DNA from: Pseudobdellovibrionaceae bacterium
GTDB taxonomy: Bacteria; Bdellovibrionota; Bdellovibrionia; Bdellovibrionales; UBA1609
Direction of reading: 5' to 3'
Length of the DNA stretch: 57,368 bases
Assembly: GCA_030591685.1 (NCBI GenBank)
Contig: JAUVAX010000014.1
Location: forward strand, 1 to 57,368
Position numbers: made by a program. Positions within the stretch are counted from its first letter, which is position 1; each line of letters opens with the position of its first letter. Shown here piece after piece: positions 12,001-21,000 of the stretch.

Positions 12001-15000
12001 CCTTTGGAGAGATATTAAAGTTTATAATAACCACGCCTACATCGTGAGTGAAGCTTACAAGCATGGGCTGCAGATTTTTGACCTCACACTGTTACGCAAT
12101 CAATCCTCTACCCCTGCTGTGTTTCAAGAAACAGCTCATTACAATTTATTTGGCAGTGCGCATAATATTTTTATAAACGAGCACTCCTCTACGGCTTATG
12201 TTGTCGGCGCTAATAACTGTGATGCGGGCATGCATATGGTGGATCTCTCGAACCCCACTAGTCCAGAGTTTATTGGCTGTGTGGACAAATCTATATTTGA
12301 AGACGTTGATAGAAACAGAGCCCCTAAAATTTTGCACGGCGAGGATTACACTCATGACGTTCAATGCGTCATCTACAAGGGCCCAGACACACGATACACT
12401 GGCCAAGAGATCTGCATAGCCTCTAATGCAGACACTGTTAATATAGTTGATGTGACTGATAAAATGCACCCCACCCAGTTGTCTGTAAAAAACTATGCAA
12501 ATTTAGGCTATGTACACCAAGGTTGGCTTACAGAGGACCATAGATTTTTTGTTCTCGGCGATGAGCTTGATGAGCAGCGCTTTGGTCATAATACGAGAAC
12601 CCATATTTGGGATGTTTCAGATTTAAAAAACCCTACGCTTATTGGCACCTACACGGCCAACACTAAATCCATTGACCACAACATGTATGTGCACAATGGC
12701 TTAATATACCAAGCCAATTACTTAGCCGGGCTAAGGGTTTTGAGCACAAAAAATATCAGCCGTGGCCAGCTTAATGAAGTGGCTTTCTTTGACACCAACC
12801 CCAATGAAGATCGAGCTAAATTTGATGGCGTATGGAGCGTTTATCCCTTTTTTAAAAGCGGCAACCTTATACTCAGTGGGTTTAACGGTCGCCTTTATAT
12901 AGTGTCAGTTAATTAACTACTCATATATATTTAACCTACACCAATAACTTTTTTTATATTTTTTAATAAAGGCTTTGCCAGTTGGCGCGCTTTTTCGGCG
13001 CCAGACAGAAGTATTTTATCTAACTCGTCCGGGTGACTCATTAACTCATTATATTTTTGCCTATGAGGCAAAAAGTACTCTTGTAACTTTTCAAACAAAA
13101 CCTGTTTAGCTTCGCCCCACCCGATGCCTGATTCAAAATGGGCTTTGAGTTTTAAAACTTCGCTGTCTGTGGCAAACTCTTTATACAAATCAAAAATAGT
13201 TGAGTTTTTTATGTCTTTAGGGGCCTCAGGGGGTAGTGAGTCTGTTTTGATTTTCATTATTAATTTTCTAAATTTTTTATCTTCACAAAAAAGAGGGATT
13301 GTATTTTTATAACTCTTACTCATTTTTCGACCATCAAGTCCGGGGATCAATTTTTGACCACTTAAAATAGGCTTAGGCAATACAAGGGTGTCTCCATAGT
13401 TGTTATTAAATTTTTGAGCAATATCCCGAGCAAATTCCACATGCTGCGCTTGGTCTTCGCCCACGGGGACATCTGTAGCATTAAACATCAAAATATCAGC
13501 CGACATTAATACCGGGTAATTAAATAGCCCCATATTAACCCCAGAGTCTAAATCAGCCTTGCCGTCTTCTTTGTTTGTACTCTGCTTGGCCTTATAAGCA
13601 TGAGCTCGGTTCATAAACCCCTTGGGGGTAAAACAGGACAGTATCCAAGAGAGCTCAAAAATTTCAGGCACATCAGACTGCTTATATATAATAGTTTTTT
13701 GAGTATTTAAACCACAGGCCAACCAGCTGGCCGCCACATGGCGAGTCGCCTGTGACAGCTCACTGGCCTTATGCATAGATGTTAAACAATGGTAGTCGGC
13801 TATAAACAACAAGCTTTGAGCCTTCGTAGAATGGGCCAGTTTAAGGCCAGGCCTAATCGCCCCTAGGTAGTTGCCTAAGTGCACATCTCCAGTTGGTTTA
13901 ATACCTGTTAGTATGGTTTTCATTAAAGCCCCGAGTTATTGTTTTTTTATTAAATACTTTACCTTTTTTTATAATAGTTGGATTCGCCAGATTTGTTGAG
14001 TGCTCAAGTAAAATAACTCATGAAATCAATTTTTTAAACAATATTGTTTTAAAAAAAAATAACCTAAATACACATTATTTTTTTTAAAAAAACACCTCGT
14101 CAACAAAATTGATAATATTTTTTTTAAAAAAATATGCTTATTTTAAAAAATTAAATATAAAAAAATTCCTAAAATTATTTCAATGGCATTGTAAATGACC
14201 ACCTATATAAAATTTTAAATTTCACTTTTCACTTAAAATAACATCCCCTTATAGTTAAGATAACGTTAATGAATGCCTCTATCTACCTTAATTAACTAGA
14301 GTATTTCGGGTTTTCAAAATTTAATAAAAATTATTTTTTTGAAGATTTTTTTTATGCTCACAAAACAATCAAGTTCCAGTTTGGCACTCCAGTTGCATTA
14401 TAAAACAAAAAATTAACACGAAGTTATGACAAGGGGCAGTAAGTTGATGCTATCATTTTTAAAAAATCAAAAAATCACTAAGGGTATCTCCTCACTCATT
14501 CTCATGATTTTTTTAATGTCATTTATAAATTTAAACCCGTCCTTTGCTGCCGAAGAGAATGAAGGCGAAAACCTCATCCCAAAAGGTGATACGTATACAG
14601 ATATATTAACTCTTCAAAAGTCAAATATGAAGTTAGCGAAGGAGGAGATCATTAAAGGTTTACCCTTTATTAACTCTAATGATCTTACTCGAGATGCATT
14701 TATTTCTTTTAATTTAAAAGACTCTAGGTACAGTGAGGTTTTTTTAGAACTCACGAAAAGATTACATTATGAAATTCAAATTGAACCTAAAGAACTTAGT
14801 GAAAAGCGATTTATATTTGTCTTTAACCTCTCGCTAAGCCTTCTCTCACTCTCCATCGAAGACGGAAAACCGATCACTCCTGAAAATTTTATGAATTTAC
14901 TGCTCATGGAAGCCCCAGAAAACGCCCTGAACCCTAAAAACCAAAAAATTGCAGACCATTTAGAGGCTGTATATATTGAGTTTATAAACAAACACAAATA

Positions 15001-18000: not shown

Positions 18001-21000
18001 GCCCGACGAAACTATAGAGCAAATGGAAGCTCGAATATTGGTAAGCCCCAAAGCTGAGATGTACCAACAAGAGCTCACACTTATGTTAAAAGAGTCGCGA
18101 CAAATGGCCGTTGAAGCCATACTCATTAACTGGGATATTTTTAGAAAACTTGGGCTTACAGTTGCTGAAAATTTAGAACTCAAAGAGGATGCCATAAAAG
18201 AATTTTATAAAAACCAAAAGCCTAAATTTTTAAATCACGATGAAGATAAATATATTCAAAAACAAGTTCATATTCGTAACAATGATTACTTTAGGTCCTC
18301 AACAGGCAAAGTGACTTTTTTAGATACCTTTGTTAATCGCCTTAGTCATAAGATTAAAGAAATGGCACAAACATTGTTTGGGAACGTTAAGGTCTCAAGC
18401 AAAATAACAGCAGCAGACATTAAGAGCCGAAAAGTTGAACTTTTAAGTCATCATTTGATGCCAAAAAAGTTGGCTGATGTAGACAAAATTATTGCTCAAG
18501 AAATCAATGACATAAGAAGGTCCGTACCTATACTAGAGGGCATACCTTTTGCTGAGACTAAAAAGTTAAGCACACCGGCTAAAGAAAAAAAGTATAGTGA
18601 TGTTGTAGGGGTTAAAACTCGCCTTTGTGCCGAGTTATTTAAATGAATTTAAGTTTTTTGTAACTGGTAGATTATAAGCAAAAGCTGATTATTTTTAGTT
18701 CACAAAACTAACAAAAATCACCTTGAAAGTTTTTAAAAAAATTGAGGGGGTTAAAGCCTTCAAGCCATTACAAAAAAAATATGTTGCTCACTCAATAAAG
18801 CATCAGTGAGTCGCCAAGGGGTGGGAGTAAATCCTCTTTTATAGAGGGCAAAGCAAGGAGCTACACTCCTTGCTTTGTTTTTTTAAGACCCATATTTTTA
18901 AAGTTGCAATTTATTGATCCCAATTGACAGCAAATACACCCGAATTTTTGGGGACTAAATAATAAAGACGTCCTTGGTTTTTCATAACACCTGCAAACTG
19001 CTTTGCTCTTCGGCCGCGACCAGAAAACAAGTCCACTCGCCCACCCCCTCTGATAGCCCCACCTGTATCTTGATCGATTACAAATCGAGAGGATTTAACC
19101 CAAAACTTAGGTTCAATTGATTTTTTGTTTTCAAATTGGGGTTTTTCAAATTCAAGGTAAGCTATTGCCCCTTTTGGAAACATCGACTTATCTGTGGCAA
19201 TGGTTCGCCCCTTAATAACCTCAGCCCCCATGGCTGTAATAGGCTTTGTATTTAATTTTCTGAAAAATACATAAGAGGGATTTTTATTTAACAGTTTCAA
19301 CATTTCATCTTTAGGTAAACTACGTAAGTGTCGCTCAATTTTTTGCATACTCATTTGCTCTTTAGGTATGATGTCCAATAAAAACTTACCTATGGCCACA
19401 TAAGGATGACCGTTTTGCCCCGCATATCCGACTCTAATGTGTTTACTTTTACCCTTAAATTTATTTTTAGAAAACACAACGGTCCCCGACCCTTGTATTT
19501 GTATAAAAAAAGCATCGACCGGGTCTACCCATGCCAATACCTCTGAGGTACTAGCCATAGGGCCGTTGTTATCTATAATGCCCTCTCTGTTATAATAGGG
19601 TAGTATTTTCGTTGAGTTTGCACCTTTAACTAAGCGACCCTTTAATTTATGTGTTTTTAAGTTATTTTCGACTATTATTTTTTTTATAGCCTCTAACTGT
19701 GGGAACTTTTGAGAAAAATCATTTAAATCCACAAAAACTAGATCTTTTGGGACTGTGTAAATTGGGTGCGAATGTTTTTTAGTTGGCTTTAATGACCCAC
19801 GAATGACGGGTTCATAATAAGATGTGATCATAACTTCGCCCCAATCATCACCACCATAGGCCTCGTAGAAATTAAAATTTTGCTTTAATACTCTTTGAAA
19901 ACCGTCAAAGTCCATACCCTCAGTTTTTTTTAATAATTTTTGAAGTTCTAACACGTATTCATTAACTGTTACTGTCTTAGGCCCAAATTGTAGAACCTTT
20001 TTTGTGTTATTTTTTGTTAAAAAATCTATGTTTTCTTGTAAGGAACTTCTTAAACTTTTATAGCTCAGGTCATCTGAGAGTACTGGCGTTTGCTCGGAGA
20101 GCCTCATTGAGTCGTAAACACTCTTTAAAGGAGCCCTTACGCATGAGCTTAAAAGTAATAACATTAGCAGTGTACTGTAGTGTTTCATATAAAACTCAGT
20201 CTATCCCTTACTTATAAGTAAGGACAATATAAAACACCCCTAAGCTTGGCCTTAAGTCATTATATGAATGGTAAAAAAAATAATTTGTATTTTTAATTTT
20301 ATCATTGCGCCAAAAGTCTAGTGCCAAGAATTTCGTCTATAAATCTTCTATAAACTTTTTCATTGTATTGACCGGTTTTCATAAAATAATCATAATTAAA
20401 GTATGAAAGTTGCAAAAGACATGATGACAAGAAAGCCCATTTCAGTGCTCTCAAGTGATAGCCTTAATTCTGTTGCTAAAGTTTTTATGGACAATCAAAT
20501 TTCAACAGCACCTGTTGAAAACCCCTTGGGGCAAGTCATGGGGGTCCTTACTGAACTTTCACTCACAAGGGCCCTTTTAAGGGTACACACTGGGGACAGC
20601 GAGCTAGACCTTGTCCACCACCACAACGAACTTCTTGAGCCCCCTTACTTAATTGATTCTGATGCCTCAATAATTGAAGTAGTTAACAGTATGCTAAATG
20701 CGCCTAATCATCGAATCTACGTGCAAAATAATATGGGTAATATTATTGGGATTATTTCACCTGTTGATATCCTCTTTTTACTCAATGGTGAAGAAAAACG
20801 CTCACAGGTTTTAAAAAATGATCTCAAAAGTGCTCATGAAAAAATCGTTAAAATGACCTCCACCATTAAATCACTCACCACCGCGACAGAAACCTATAAA
20901 GAACTTTATGATGACGCCCCTGTGATGATGCATTCTGTAAATGAAAAGGCTGTTATAATAATGGCTAATAAAAAAATACATGATGTTTTAGGTTATGATG

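What a model noticed while it worked through the whole genome (the two positions that open the first line are those of the whole stretch)
14426..18646. Exported double-AAA+ / M41 metalloprotease of predators
g02049 (1399-1406 aa) joins an N-terminal Sec-type signal/anchor, a 270-aa helical region, two ClpB-D2-like AAA+ modules and an FtsH-type M41 zinc protease (HEAGH), with no second membrane span, and lies behind a 523-bp spacer of 23.5% G+C. I read it as an ATP-dependent unfoldase-protease that is exported, which only makes sense if it works where ATP is, i.e. inside the prey cell, as a predator-delivered protein shredder. New would be a secreted AAA+ protease and a Bdellovibrionota-specific family (about 9% of genomes).
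Evidence so far: pfam.tsv: AAA_2 741-870, Peptidase_M41 1065-1242. Alignment A1 of the 5 clusters found among 5.8e9 proteins: invariant GLPGxGKDT (Walker A 1), G(L/I)SSxGK(T/S) + LDE or LNE (Walker A/B 2), HExGH and downstream ND of M41; all five start with a short polar or K/R-rich stretch, then 16-20 hydrophobic residues, then small residues (A-x-A type). Hydropathy: one hydrophobic stretch only (aa 9-27). search_genomes: 36 of 401 Bdellovibrionota genomes (G000 included) match at E<=1e-20, 31 of the others at E<=1e-88 in open frames of 878-1453 aa (most 1250-1375), spread patchily over 11 families; 0 of 26 in the best-sampled genus.
(Added by a program. Inside this text positions count along the whole contig: contig position 1 is position 1 of the stretch shown here. 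"Call 12" and the like, gene names such as g00115 and contig names such as C1 are that model's own, and its searches are not shown. The text may have been shortened before it was handed on; [...] marks where a part breaks off. The agent that wrote the report below was given it as the finding of a first reader that could run no searches.)

Follow-up and report, generated by a model that had tools for sequence, protein, structure and literature searches.

The report
Exported double-AAA+ zinc protease family
A large family of Bdellovibrio-like bacteria makes an ATP-driven protein-shredding machine that carries an export signal, so it seems built to work outside its own cytoplasm, most plausibly on or in prey cells.

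Summary
ORF 14426-18646 (+, 1406 aa; 1399 aa from Met8) has one N-terminal hydrophobic leader with an SFA|AE site. It then has a 230-aa N-domain, two ClpB-NBD2-type AAA+ modules and an FtsH-type M41 domain (HEAGH).

In 87 aligned members, module 2 keeps Walker-A Lys, Walker-B Glu, sensor-1 Asn and an Arg in 87/87. The zinc site is kept in 86-87/87. Most members carry a short, cleavable-looking leader and none has a convincing second membrane span.

New here: 82/87 end in a disordered tail with a Cys motif, [ST]-C-x-x-[LIVA]-[LF], often the only Cys. In this genome 16 ORFs end with the stricter C-x-x-[LIVMF]-F form (3.2 expected). Most have leaders, and they include a Clp-like double AAA+, an ATP-grasp and a GGDEF enzyme.

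Export of an ATP-dependent protease is well supported from sequence. Action in prey, or on prey-derived ATP, remains an inference. I found no published description in the six full-text searches listed under Tried and rejected.

The parts
13924..14425 (.). AT-rich intergenic spacer between the divergent trpS-like gene and the ORF. It holds a 27-nt direct repeat with T8A7 palindromes at 14066-14092 and 14106-14132.
   Evidence: 502 bp at 22.5% G+C, or 523 bp at 23.5% up to the Met8 start, against 39.8% for the window. Repeats. Seven promoter-like sites against 3.6 +/- 1.9 in shuffles; this is consensus matching only.
14426..18646 (+). Whole ORF, 1406 aa plus stop (alternative start at 14447, giving 1399 aa).
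14426..14548 (+). Sec-type leader, aa 1-41: K/R-rich n-region, h-region GISSLILMIFLMSFI, then NPSFA|AEENE.
   Evidence: Read from the sequence. My rule gives 4 positive and 0 negative charges before the h-region, and 0 positive and 4 negative after it. It is the only hydrophobic stretch. Cleavage was not tested.
14549..15232 (+). N-domain, aa 42-269, poorly conserved. It carries the family's recurrent Y-x-[YF]-x-E-V-like motif (here RYSEV).
   Evidence: No Pfam hit at E<=1. Motif seen by eye in the N-termini. ESM Atlas gave no usable hit. Not modelled.
15233..16423 (+). AAA+ module 1, aa 270-666, of ClpB-NBD2 type. Motifs: Walker A GLPGNGKDT, pore loop GFVG, Walker B INEF (Asn in place of Asp), sensor-2 ARP. 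A disordered Gly/Ser insert lies at aa 524-539.
   Evidence: Model residues 1-397 match ClpB 6oax_E residues 555-857 (Z 27.1, rmsd 2.1 A, 297 aligned). Sequence match to the ClpB D2 small domain at 548-652. Conservation in 87 members: K323 76, N430 66 (D 10), E431 65, N476 72, R552 71, R616 72, pore-loop Y 56 / F 14.
16493..17590 (+). AAA+ module 2, aa 690-1055, of ClpB-NBD2/Skd3 type with a complete catalytic set. It has no conserved pore-loop aromatic residue.
   Evidence: Model residues 421-786 match Skd3 7ttr_D (Z 25.7, 311 aligned). Sequence match to ClpB D2 at 692-890, E 1.1e-12. K759, E825, N862 and R913 are each kept in 87/87; D824 in 73 (E in 11).
17624..18220 (+). M41 zinc-protease domain, aa 1067-1265: HEAGH at 1079-1083 and Asp1165.
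   Evidence: Pfam E 3.8e-15. Matches FtsH 3kds_E (Z 19.8, rmsd 2.4 A, 180 aligned, 27% identity). H1079, E1080 and H1083 are kept in 87/87 and D1165 in 86/87.
18221..18556 (+). C-terminal extension, aa 1266-1377, mostly helical.
   Evidence: Second model, pLDDT mostly 70-98 with a dip at aa 1319-1324. No separate fold match was obtained because the list was filled by M41.
18557..18643 (+). Disordered tail, aa 1378-1406, ending ...KTRLCAELFK. Cys1401 (codon 18626-18628) is the only Cys in the protein.
   Evidence: pLDDT about 45-51. A Cys lies in the last 20 residues in 82/87 members and is the sole mature Cys in 40/87. Position +3 is L/A/I/V and +4 is L 47 / F 21.

Best explanation
The gene encodes a Sec-exported, ATP-dependent unfoldase-protease. 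It is a hybrid between an Hsp100-type double-ring ATPase and the protease half of FtsH.

Shown from sequence and models:
- A cleavable-looking leader.
- Two stacked ClpB-NBD2-type AAA+ modules.
- An FtsH-like M41 domain with an intact zinc site.
- A disordered C-terminal tail with a conserved single Cys.

Inferred by analogy with FtsH and ClpB:
- The mature protein of about 150 kDa forms a ring in which module 2 hydrolyses ATP.
- Module 1 has Asn-Glu in Walker B but keeps a Tyr/Phe pore loop. It probably binds nucleotide and grips substrate, and polypeptides are fed into the M41 chamber.

Because the whole family keeps both the leader and the ATPase residues, the enzyme must work where ATP exists outside the producer's cytoplasm. 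The most plausible place is a breached prey cell, or the predator-prey interface, where it would run on prey ATP.

The Cys tail is shared with other leader-bearing proteins of the same genome that have nucleotide-using domains. I read it as a second sorting, tethering or release signal for that cohort. One option is a mixed disulfide to a carrier that is reduced in a cytoplasm. This last step is speculation.
For: Architecture:
- Pfam and NCBIfam hits and PDB sequence matches to ClpB D2 and FtsH.
- AlphaFold model of aa 270-1265: pLDDT 89.7, pTM 0.79.
- Foldseek aligns about 800 columns to ClpC/ClpB/ClpA/Hsp104 protomers and about 570 to FtsH or AFG3L2.
- VIA-align places both modules on ClpB-NBD2/Skd3 (Z 25.7-27.1) and the M41 part on FtsH (Z 19.8).

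The enzyme is active rather than decayed. In 87 members sharing 21-39% identity with the query, K759, E825, N862, R913, H1079, E1080 and H1083 are each kept in 87/87, and D1165 in 86/87.

Export:
- Leaders are visible in the loci and proteins.
- My loose rule passes 70/87 members, against 47% of this genome's ORFs >=300 aa.
- My strict rule passes 52/87, against 23% of 2036 untagged ORFs.
- The h-region has a median of 13 aa (range 8-21). Charges are +2.0/-0.3 before it and +1.3/-2.1 after it.
- One member has a lipobox-like VVGC.
- Cys content is 1.8 per 1000 aa, against a genome median of 9.3.

It is an extra, non-housekeeping gene. The genome also has two ordinary FtsH genes above the curated cut-off, and no neighbour is conserved (at most 6 of 35 loci share any one).

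Cohort:
- 16 ORFs of this genome end in C-x-x-[LIVMF]-F within the last 12 aa, against 3.2 expected.
- 10 of these 16 pass the strict leader rule, against 23% background (Fisher p 7e-4).
- They include a double AAA+, a circularly permuted ATP-grasp, a GGDEF domain with an intact GGDEF motif, a PLD-like protein and a carboxylesterase.
- A second family (leader, Clp-like double AAA+, tail Cys) occurs in 15 of 201 genomes.

Literature:
- Sec leaders suffice for secretion of a reporter out of B. bacteriovorus (PMC12622784, passages read).
- How lytic enzymes reach prey cytoplasm is stated as open (PMC12428579, passages read).
Against: - There is no experimental datum on expression, cleavage, location or activity.
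- Both leader rules are home-made. The loose one has a high background, no SignalP-type predictor was available, and about 10 of 87 members show no N-terminal hydrophobic stretch by eye. These could be truncated gene calls or truly leaderless forms.
- Module 1 has Asn for the Walker-B Asp, and module 2 lacks a conserved pore-loop aromatic residue. The division of labour is therefore unusual and unproven.
- The family was not found in the best-studied predator genus (0/26). The carriers are uncultured MAG lineages whose predatory habit is assumed from taxonomy.
- Prey ATP may be short-lived after killing.
- No translocation domain or partner was identified, and the N-domain was not modelled.
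- The GGDEF relative found in another genome has a leader but no tail Cys.
Confidence: 0.5

Rival explanations
1. It is a periplasm-facing or envelope-resident AAA+ protease of the producer itself, an analogue of the mitochondrial i-AAA protease Yme1. The leader is either kept as an anchor or cleaved. The enzyme degrades imported prey proteins or the cell's own envelope proteins, using ATP that leaks in from prey through the feeding junction.
For: It shares the export evidence of the main reading. The M41 domain also matches Yme1 (6az0, Z 18.5). The topology, one N-terminal span with the catalytic part outside, is the i-AAA topology (recalled knowledge). No translocation domain or partner was found.
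Against: The h-regions are short (median 13 aa) with small residues at -3/-1, which fits cleaved leaders better than anchors. The conserved Cys tail, shared with unrelated leader-bearing proteins, suggests a further sorting or tethering step. Bacterial periplasm is generally held to lack ATP (recalled knowledge).
Confidence: 0.22
2. It is a cytoplasmic enzyme tethered to the inner membrane by an N-terminal anchor of reversed orientation, or mis-called starts create apparent leaders. It would then be a specialised quality-control protease beside FtsH.
For: ATP is available there without any special assumption. About 10 of 87 members show no leader. My leader rules are crude: background 23-47%.
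Against: Charge distribution follows N-in/C-out: +2.0 before and net negative after the h-region. AxA-type sites recur across 25-40% identical members and in independent loci. Cys content is very low, with one tail Cys. One member has a lipobox-like start.
Confidence: 0.1
3. It is an exported but ATP-independent protease or holdase. The AAA+ modules would serve only as scaffold or substrate-binding rings, with nucleotide as a structural cofactor loaded before export or not needed at all.
For: Module 1 carries Asn instead of the Walker-B Asp in 66/87 members. Module 2 lacks the pore-loop aromatic residue.
Against: Sec exports unfolded chains, so nucleotide cannot be carried along (recalled knowledge). 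Walker-A Lys, Walker-B Glu, sensor-1 Asn and an Arg of module 2 are each kept in 87/87 at 21-39% overall identity, which is hard to explain without hydrolysis.
Confidence: 0.1

Closest known systems
FtsH / m-AAA / i-AAA proteases (MEROPS M41, TIGR01241)
   Same: M41 fold with HEXXH and a downstream Asp (Z 19.8 to 3kds_E; Z 19.1 to AFG3L2; Z 18.5 to Yme1). An AAA+ module lies directly in front of the protease, and Foldseek aligns about 570 columns to FtsH chains.
   Different: Only profile positions 416-594 of TIGR01241 match (47 bits against a 600-bit cut-off). The ATPase is of ClpB-NBD2 type and is doubled. There is one cleavable-looking leader instead of two membrane spans. Extra N-domain, C-extension and Cys tail are present. 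The genome has two ordinary FtsH genes besides.
Clp/Hsp100 double-ring unfoldases (ClpB, ClpC, ClpA, Hsp104) and single-ring Skd3/CLPB
   Same: Tandem AAA+ modules align over about 500-540 residues to ClpC1, ClpB and ClpA protomers (Z 22-26). Each module alone matches ClpB NBD2 or Skd3. The D2-small domain and the GAR-like sensor-2 are kept in module 1.
   Different: Both modules are NBD2-like; there is no classic D1. No Clp_N or M-domain was found by Pfam. Scores are far below the curated cut-offs (51 against 1232 bits). The protease is fused covalently rather than being a ClpP partner. A leader is present.
Plasmodium HSP101 of the PTEX translocon
   Same: A ClpB-type AAA+ unfoldase that works outside the cell that makes it, in the parasitophorous vacuole (recalled knowledge). 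Its NBD2 is among the best structural matches to module 1 (6e10_2, Z 26.5, 307 aligned), as expected for any ClpB homologue.
   Different: It is eukaryotic, has no protease domain, and is part of a membrane translocon with EXP2 and PTEX150. There is no evidence here for a translocon.
Outward-facing FtsH copies predicted in phytoplasmas
   Same: FtsH-type ATP-dependent proteases predicted to expose their catalytic part to the host's ATP-containing cytoplasm, and proposed to degrade host proteins (PMC6981957, abstract and passages read).
   Different: They are membrane-anchored single-AAA FtsH paralogues in a wall-less intracellular bacterium. Their topology predictions conflict between programs. 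They have no double ring and no Cys tail.

Membership tests
FtsH family (TIGR01241 / M41 AAA protease) | M41 protease domain with HEXXH and a downstream Asp zinc ligand | tested here: met
   Pfam PF01434 E 3.8e-15. HEAGH and D1165 are kept in 86-87 of 87 members. FtsH 3kds_E Z 19.8.
FtsH family (TIGR01241 / M41 AAA protease) | Whole-protein match to the family model above its curated cut-off, including the FtsH-type AAA module | tested here: not met
   47.2 bits against a 600-bit cut-off; only profile positions 416-594 match. The two true FtsH genes of the genome score 745-862 bits.
FtsH family (TIGR01241 / M41 AAA protease) | Two N-terminal membrane spans around a periplasmic domain, catalytic part in the cytoplasm (feature recalled from knowledge of FtsH) | tested here: not met
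   One hydrophobic stretch only, aa 16-42. Later windows above the threshold occur in only 7 of the 111 full-length proteins listed.
Clp/Hsp100 class 1 (ClpB TIGR03346, ClpA TIGR02639) | Two AAA+ modules in tandem in one chain | tested here: met
   Foldseek aligns about 800 columns to ClpC1, ClpC and ClpB. VIA-align aligns 500-540 residues at Z 22-26.
Clp/Hsp100 class 1 (ClpB TIGR03346, ClpA TIGR02639) | Whole-protein match above the curated cut-off, with a D1 of classic type | tested here: not met
   51.3 bits against 1232.1. Module 1 aligns to ClpB residues 555-857, which is NBD2 and not NBD1.
Clp/Hsp100 class 1 (ClpB TIGR03346, ClpA TIGR02639) | Clp_N domain and/or middle domain | tested here: inconclusive
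   No Pfam match at E<=1. The N-domain (aa 42-269) was not modelled.
Hydrolysing AAA+ module | Walker-A Lys, Walker-B Asp-Glu, sensor-1 Asn and an Arg finger | tested here: met
   Module 2: K759, E825, N862 and R913 each 87/87; D824 in 73 (E in 11). Module 1 meets this only in part: K323 76, N430 66 in place of Asp, E431 65. The assignment of R913 and R552 as Arg fingers rests on alignment to ClpB and was not checked in an oligomer model.
Hydrolysing AAA+ module | Aromatic pore-loop residue | tested here: inconclusive
   Module 1 has G-[Y 56 / F 14]-V-G. The aligned position of module 2 is variable, although F808 is kept in 78/87 nearby.
Sec/SPase I signal peptide | Positive n-region, h-region of about 7-15 residues, small residues at -3/-1, no further span | tested here: met
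   P0001: four K/R, a 15-aa h-region and SFA|A. Family: loose rule 70/87, strict rule 52/87 against backgrounds of 47% and 23%. The rules are my own and not a trained predictor.
Sec/SPase I signal peptide | Actual export and cleavage | not testable with these tools
   Needs reporter fusions or N-terminal sequencing.

The most novel reading that the evidence does not exclude
Many Bdellovibrionota may use a two-signal route for one cohort of enzymes. The first signal is an N-terminal Sec leader. The second is a disordered C-terminal tail ending in [ST]-C-x-x-[LIVA]-[LF].

The cohort consists of enzymes that only make sense inside a living cytoplasm: this double-AAA+/M41 protease, a Clp-like double-AAA+ unfoldase, an ATP-grasp ligase, a GGDEF cyclase and a PLD-type nuclease or lipase.

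The lone tail Cys would tether the cargo, for example by a disulfide to a carrier, until it reaches the reducing prey cytoplasm. There the protease would shred prey proteins using the prey's own ATP.
Probability: 0.25. Interest if true: 0.92.

Novelty: new variant of a known kind. Interest (0 to 1): 0.8.

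Why it matters
ATP-dependent proteases are textbook cytoplasmic or matrix machines. A large bacterial family that pairs intact ATPase sites with an export leader breaks that rule, and it raises the question of where these enzymes obtain ATP.

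If they act in prey, this would be the first energy-dependent unfoldase-protease exported by a bacterial predator. It would also be an entry point to an open question in the field: how predators get enzymes into prey cytoplasm (PMC12428579, passages read).

The shared C-terminal Cys tail gives a concrete sequence handle that can be mutated. With it one could list candidate delivered proteins in any genome and fish for the machinery that recognises them.

Tried and rejected
- Cysteine-switch idea (tail Cys capping the zinc site). The model of aa 1040-1406 leaves aa 1378-1406 at pLDDT about 45-51 with no docking. This gives no verdict, so I did not pursue it.
- Conserved operon partner. ORFs from 34 related loci plus the window were clustered. 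No neighbour family occurs in more than 6 of 35 loci, and trpS adjacency occurs in 4 of 35.
- ATP/ADP translocase (PF03219) in the genome. No hit, but the control genomes also gave none, so the result is uninformative.
- ESM Atlas with the N-domain: no usable hit.
- NCBIfam on the 15 other tagged proteins: no model for the tail at E<=0.1.
- Expression: no RNA holder listed. One DNA run holds 72% of the sampled words.
- Earlier findings of this scan: nothing by place, words or sequence.
- Relatives of the tagged ATP-grasp and GGDEF proteins are rare: 3 of 201 and 2 of 201 genomes. Both ATP-grasp relatives (2 of 2) have a leader or lipobox and a Cys within the last 14 residues. The GGDEF relative has a leader but no tail Cys.
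- Literature. Six full-text searches found no description of an exported AAA+ protease, of this family or of the tail motif. Subscription journals are not covered.
- The search for related loci with alignment A1 failed for lack of a conserved stretch and worked with the smaller A2.
- The first structure job was too large and was resent with 57 rows.

Full report
**1. The observation**

The window holds one long ORF at 14426-18646 on the + strand: 1406 aa with no internal stop.

- Pfam finds Peptidase_M41 at 1072-1249 (E 3.8e-15) and AAA_2 at 748-877 (E 6e-7). ClpB_D2-small matches weakly at 562-641, below cut-off.
- NCBIfam matches only parts of ClpB (51 bits against a 1232-bit cut-off) and of FtsH (47 bits against 600; profile positions 416-594 only).
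- A PDB sequence search aligns the ClpB D2 large domain to aa 692-890. Separately, it aligns the D2 small domain to aa 548-652. There are therefore two D2-like units.
- Only aa 16-42 exceed a 19-residue hydropathy threshold.
- The upstream spacer is 523 bp at 23.5% G+C, against 39.8% for the window.

**2. Size and range of the family**

An exhaustive HMMER search with aa 651-1406 against 1.84 billion cluster representatives gave 712 hits at E<=1e-3. Of these, 148 were at E<=1e-10 and 107 at E<=1e-30, and most are 1250-1450 aa long.

A pattern scan of one genome for each of 185,579 species returned 63 loci.
- The 35 loci that match beyond the M41 part (L031-L065) are all labelled Bdellovibrionota, Bdellovibrionales, Bdellovibrionaceae or Pseudobdellovibrionaceae MAGs.
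- The other 28 match only aa ~1059-1278 and are ordinary FtsH genes of other phyla.
- Only the best 80 of 191 stretches were kept, so other phyla are not excluded.

Where sources name members, the names are 'AAA family ATPase', 'hypothetical protein' or 'ClpA'.

The genome also has two ordinary FtsH genes (862 and 745 bits), so this is an additional gene. It stands alone between a divergent tRNA-synt_1b gene (Trp/Tyr class, here called trpS-like) and a convergent MltA-like gene. No neighbour is conserved across 35 loci.

**3. Structure**

An AlphaFold model of aa 270-1265, built with 57 family rows, has mean pLDDT 89.7 and pTM 0.79. Only the Gly/Ser insert at aa 524-539 is disordered.

- Foldseek's best matches are Hsp100 protomers (ClpC1, ClpC, ClpB, ClpA, Hsp104) over about 800 columns. 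FtsH and AFG3L2 follow over about 570 columns.
- VIA-align puts model residues 1-397 on ClpB NBD2 (6oax_E 555-857, Z 27.1, rmsd 2.1 A, 297 aligned).
- It puts model residues 421-786 on Skd3 (7ttr_D, Z 25.7).
- A second model, aa 1040-1406 (pLDDT 86.9), puts aa 1067-1265 on FtsH (3kds_E, Z 19.8, rmsd 2.4 A, 180 aligned, 27% identity). It leaves the last 29 residues disordered.

The protein is therefore an Hsp100-like double ring made of two NBD2-type modules, fused to the protease half of FtsH.

**4. Are the enzymes intact?**

I aligned 87 full-length members that share 21-39% identity with the query.

| Part | Residue or motif | Kept (of 87) |
|---|---|---|
| Module 2 | Walker-A Lys759 | 87 |
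| Module 2 | Walker-B Glu825 | 87 |
| Module 2 | Walker-B Asp824 | 73 (Glu in 11) |
| Module 2 | sensor-1 Asn862 | 87 |
| Module 2 | Arg913 | 87 |
| Protease | H1079, E1080, H1083 | 87 each |
| Protease | D1165 | 86 |
| Module 1 | Lys323 | 76 |
| Module 1 | Walker B Asn430 | 66 (Asp in 10) |
| Module 1 | Walker B Glu431 | 65 |
| Module 1 | Asn476 | 72 |
| Module 1 | Arg552 | 71 |
| Module 1 | Arg616 | 72 |
| Module 1 | pore loop G-[Y/F]-V-G | Tyr 56, Phe 14 |

Module 2 has no conserved aromatic residue at the aligned pore-loop position. I infer that module 2 is the hydrolysing motor. Module 1 probably binds nucleotide and grips substrate. This split is unusual and untested.

**5. The leader**

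In 30 loci taken from whole genomes, and in 111 full-length library proteins, the N-termini nearly always show three things. There is a short K/R-containing start, then a hydrophobic run, then small residues such as SFA|A, AQA|D, AWA|K or AFA|D.

No trained predictor was available, so I wrote two rules.
- The loose rule passes 70 of 87 members, but also 47% of this genome's ORFs >=300 aa.
- The strict rule passes 52 of 87, against 23% of 2036 other ORFs >=150 aa.

Many of the failures are technical, such as a distant start or no K/R. By eye, about 10 of 87 have no hydrophobic start at all.

Among the sequences that pass, the h-region has a median of 13 residues (range 8-21). The 15 residues before it carry +2.0/-0.3 charges and the 15 after it carry +1.3/-2.1. 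This is the pattern of cleaved Sec leaders with the body outside. It is not the pattern of a reversed anchor. One member starts with a lipobox-like VVGC.

**6. The C-terminal Cys tail (new here)**

The family is very poor in Cys: 1.8 per 1000 aa, against a genome median of 9.3.
- 82 of 87 members have a Cys in their last 20 residues, with a median of 7 residues after it.
- In 40 of 87 it is the only Cys of the mature protein.
- The residue before it is mostly Ser or Thr. Position +3 is L/A/I/V and +4 is Leu (47) or Phe (21).

In this genome, 16 ORFs >=150 aa end with C-x-x-[LIVMF]-F within the last 12 residues. The internal frequency of the motif predicts 3.2.
- Ten of the 16 pass the strict leader rule, against 23% background (Fisher p 7e-4). 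Several more have obvious leaders. One is cut by a contig end.
- Most have only 1-2 Cys.

Pfam and NCBIfam place among them:
- a Clp-like double AAA+ (L102);
- a circularly permuted ATP-grasp (L104);
- a GGDEF domain with an intact GGDEF motif (L109);
- a PLD-like protein with an HxK motif (L101);
- a carboxylesterase (L103);
- the remaining ten match no family or give only weak hits far below cut-off.

Relatives of the double AAA+ occur in 15 of 201 genomes. Most full ORFs there again combine a leader with a tail Cys. In 487 kb of flanks from other carriers, one further tagged, leader-bearing ORF lies next to the protease gene (L055).

Leader-bearing proteins whose domains need ATP or GTP thus form a cohort marked by the same tail.

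**7. Most likely mechanism**

- Shown: the architecture, the conserved catalytic residues, the leader-like N-termini, and the tail motif with its cohort.
- Inferred from FtsH and ClpB: ring assembly and ATP-driven threading into the M41 chamber.
- Inferred from the paradox: an exported machine that keeps its ATPase must act where ATP is available outside the producer's cytoplasm. For a member of a phylum of predators, that means a breached prey cell or the feeding junction.

Sec leaders alone drive secretion of a reporter out of B. bacteriovorus (PMC12622784, passages read). The route of lytic enzymes into prey cytoplasm is described as unknown (PMC12428579, passages read).

The tail may be a second signal, a tether or a release device. 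The disulfide-carrier idea is my speculation.

**8. Rivals**

- An i-AAA-like protease facing the producer's own periplasm.
- A cytoplasmic enzyme with a reversed anchor.
- An ATP-independent exported protease.

Each is weighed in the Rival explanations section. None is excluded without experiments.

**9. Comparison with what is known**

The protein fails the membership tests for FtsH (model score, membrane topology, AAA type). It also fails those for ClpB/ClpA (model score, no classic D1). It shares folds and catalytic motifs with both.

Functional analogues outside the cytoplasm of the maker are:
- Plasmodium HSP101 in PTEX (recalled; its NBD2 scores Z 26.5);
- Yme1 (recalled; Z 18.5);
- the outward-facing FtsH copies predicted in phytoplasmas (PMC6981957, abstract and passages read).

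Six full-text searches found no description of this family, of an exported bacterial AAA+ protease or of the tail motif.

**10. Limits**

- There is no expression evidence: no RNA holder was listed.
- The N-domain (aa 42-269) was not modelled and has no family or Atlas match.
- The carriers are uncultured lineages. The family was not found in the 26 genomes of the best-sampled genus, so 'of predators' is an assumption.
- The leader rules are mine.

**11. Verdict**

The finding is a new variant of a known kind (an AAA+ protease) with unusually high interest, because export and ATP dependence coexist across a large family and because a shared tail motif makes the delivery question testable.

Noticed in passing
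G000 contigs, loci L099-L113 (for example L102, L104, L109, L101, L103): Fifteen further ORFs of this genome end in C-x-x-[LIVMF]-F within the last 12 residues; with the finding's ORF that makes 16, against 3.2 expected. Most have leader-like starts and only 1-2 Cys. They include a Clp-like double AAA+, a circularly permuted ATP-grasp, a GGDEF domain with an intact motif, a PLD-like protein and a carboxylesterase.
   Followed up: partly
L114-L129 (G000:C62 and C96, and 14 other genomes): A second family combines a leader, an N-domain, a ClpA/ClpB-like double AAA+ and a tail Cys. It occurs in 15 of 201 Bdellovibrionota genomes. G000 holds two partial copies at contig ends, 84% identical over 160 aa. 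Six of the 14 other carriers also carry the AAA+/M41 gene, but those six are close kin: five belong to one family.
   Followed up: partly
window 14066-14092 and 14106-14132: A 27-nt direct repeat (85% identical, 40 nt apart) lies in the AT-rich spacer. Each copy holds a T8A7 palindrome, and a third partial copy lies at 14323-14343. These may be operator sites or bent DNA in front of the gene.
   Followed up: no
L055:230-1096 (+), directly upstream of the family member at L055:1208-5308: A 288-aa ORF with a leader-like start, a single Cys and a C-terminal ...FRSCRNFFISN tail sits next to the protease gene in another genome.
   Followed up: no
window 10474-11379 (-) and 22651-23991 (-): Two ORFs of 301 and 446 aa near the finding have no Pfam family at E<=0.001.
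   Followed up: no
family N-domains (for example P0001 aa ~100-110; the N-termini listed): A recurrent motif of the type [KQ]-[YF]-x-[YF]-x-E-V (KYPYEEV, HYRFHEV, QYKFEF; RYSEV here) lies about 40-70 residues after the leader. It is the only obvious conserved element of the otherwise variable N-domain.
   Followed up: no
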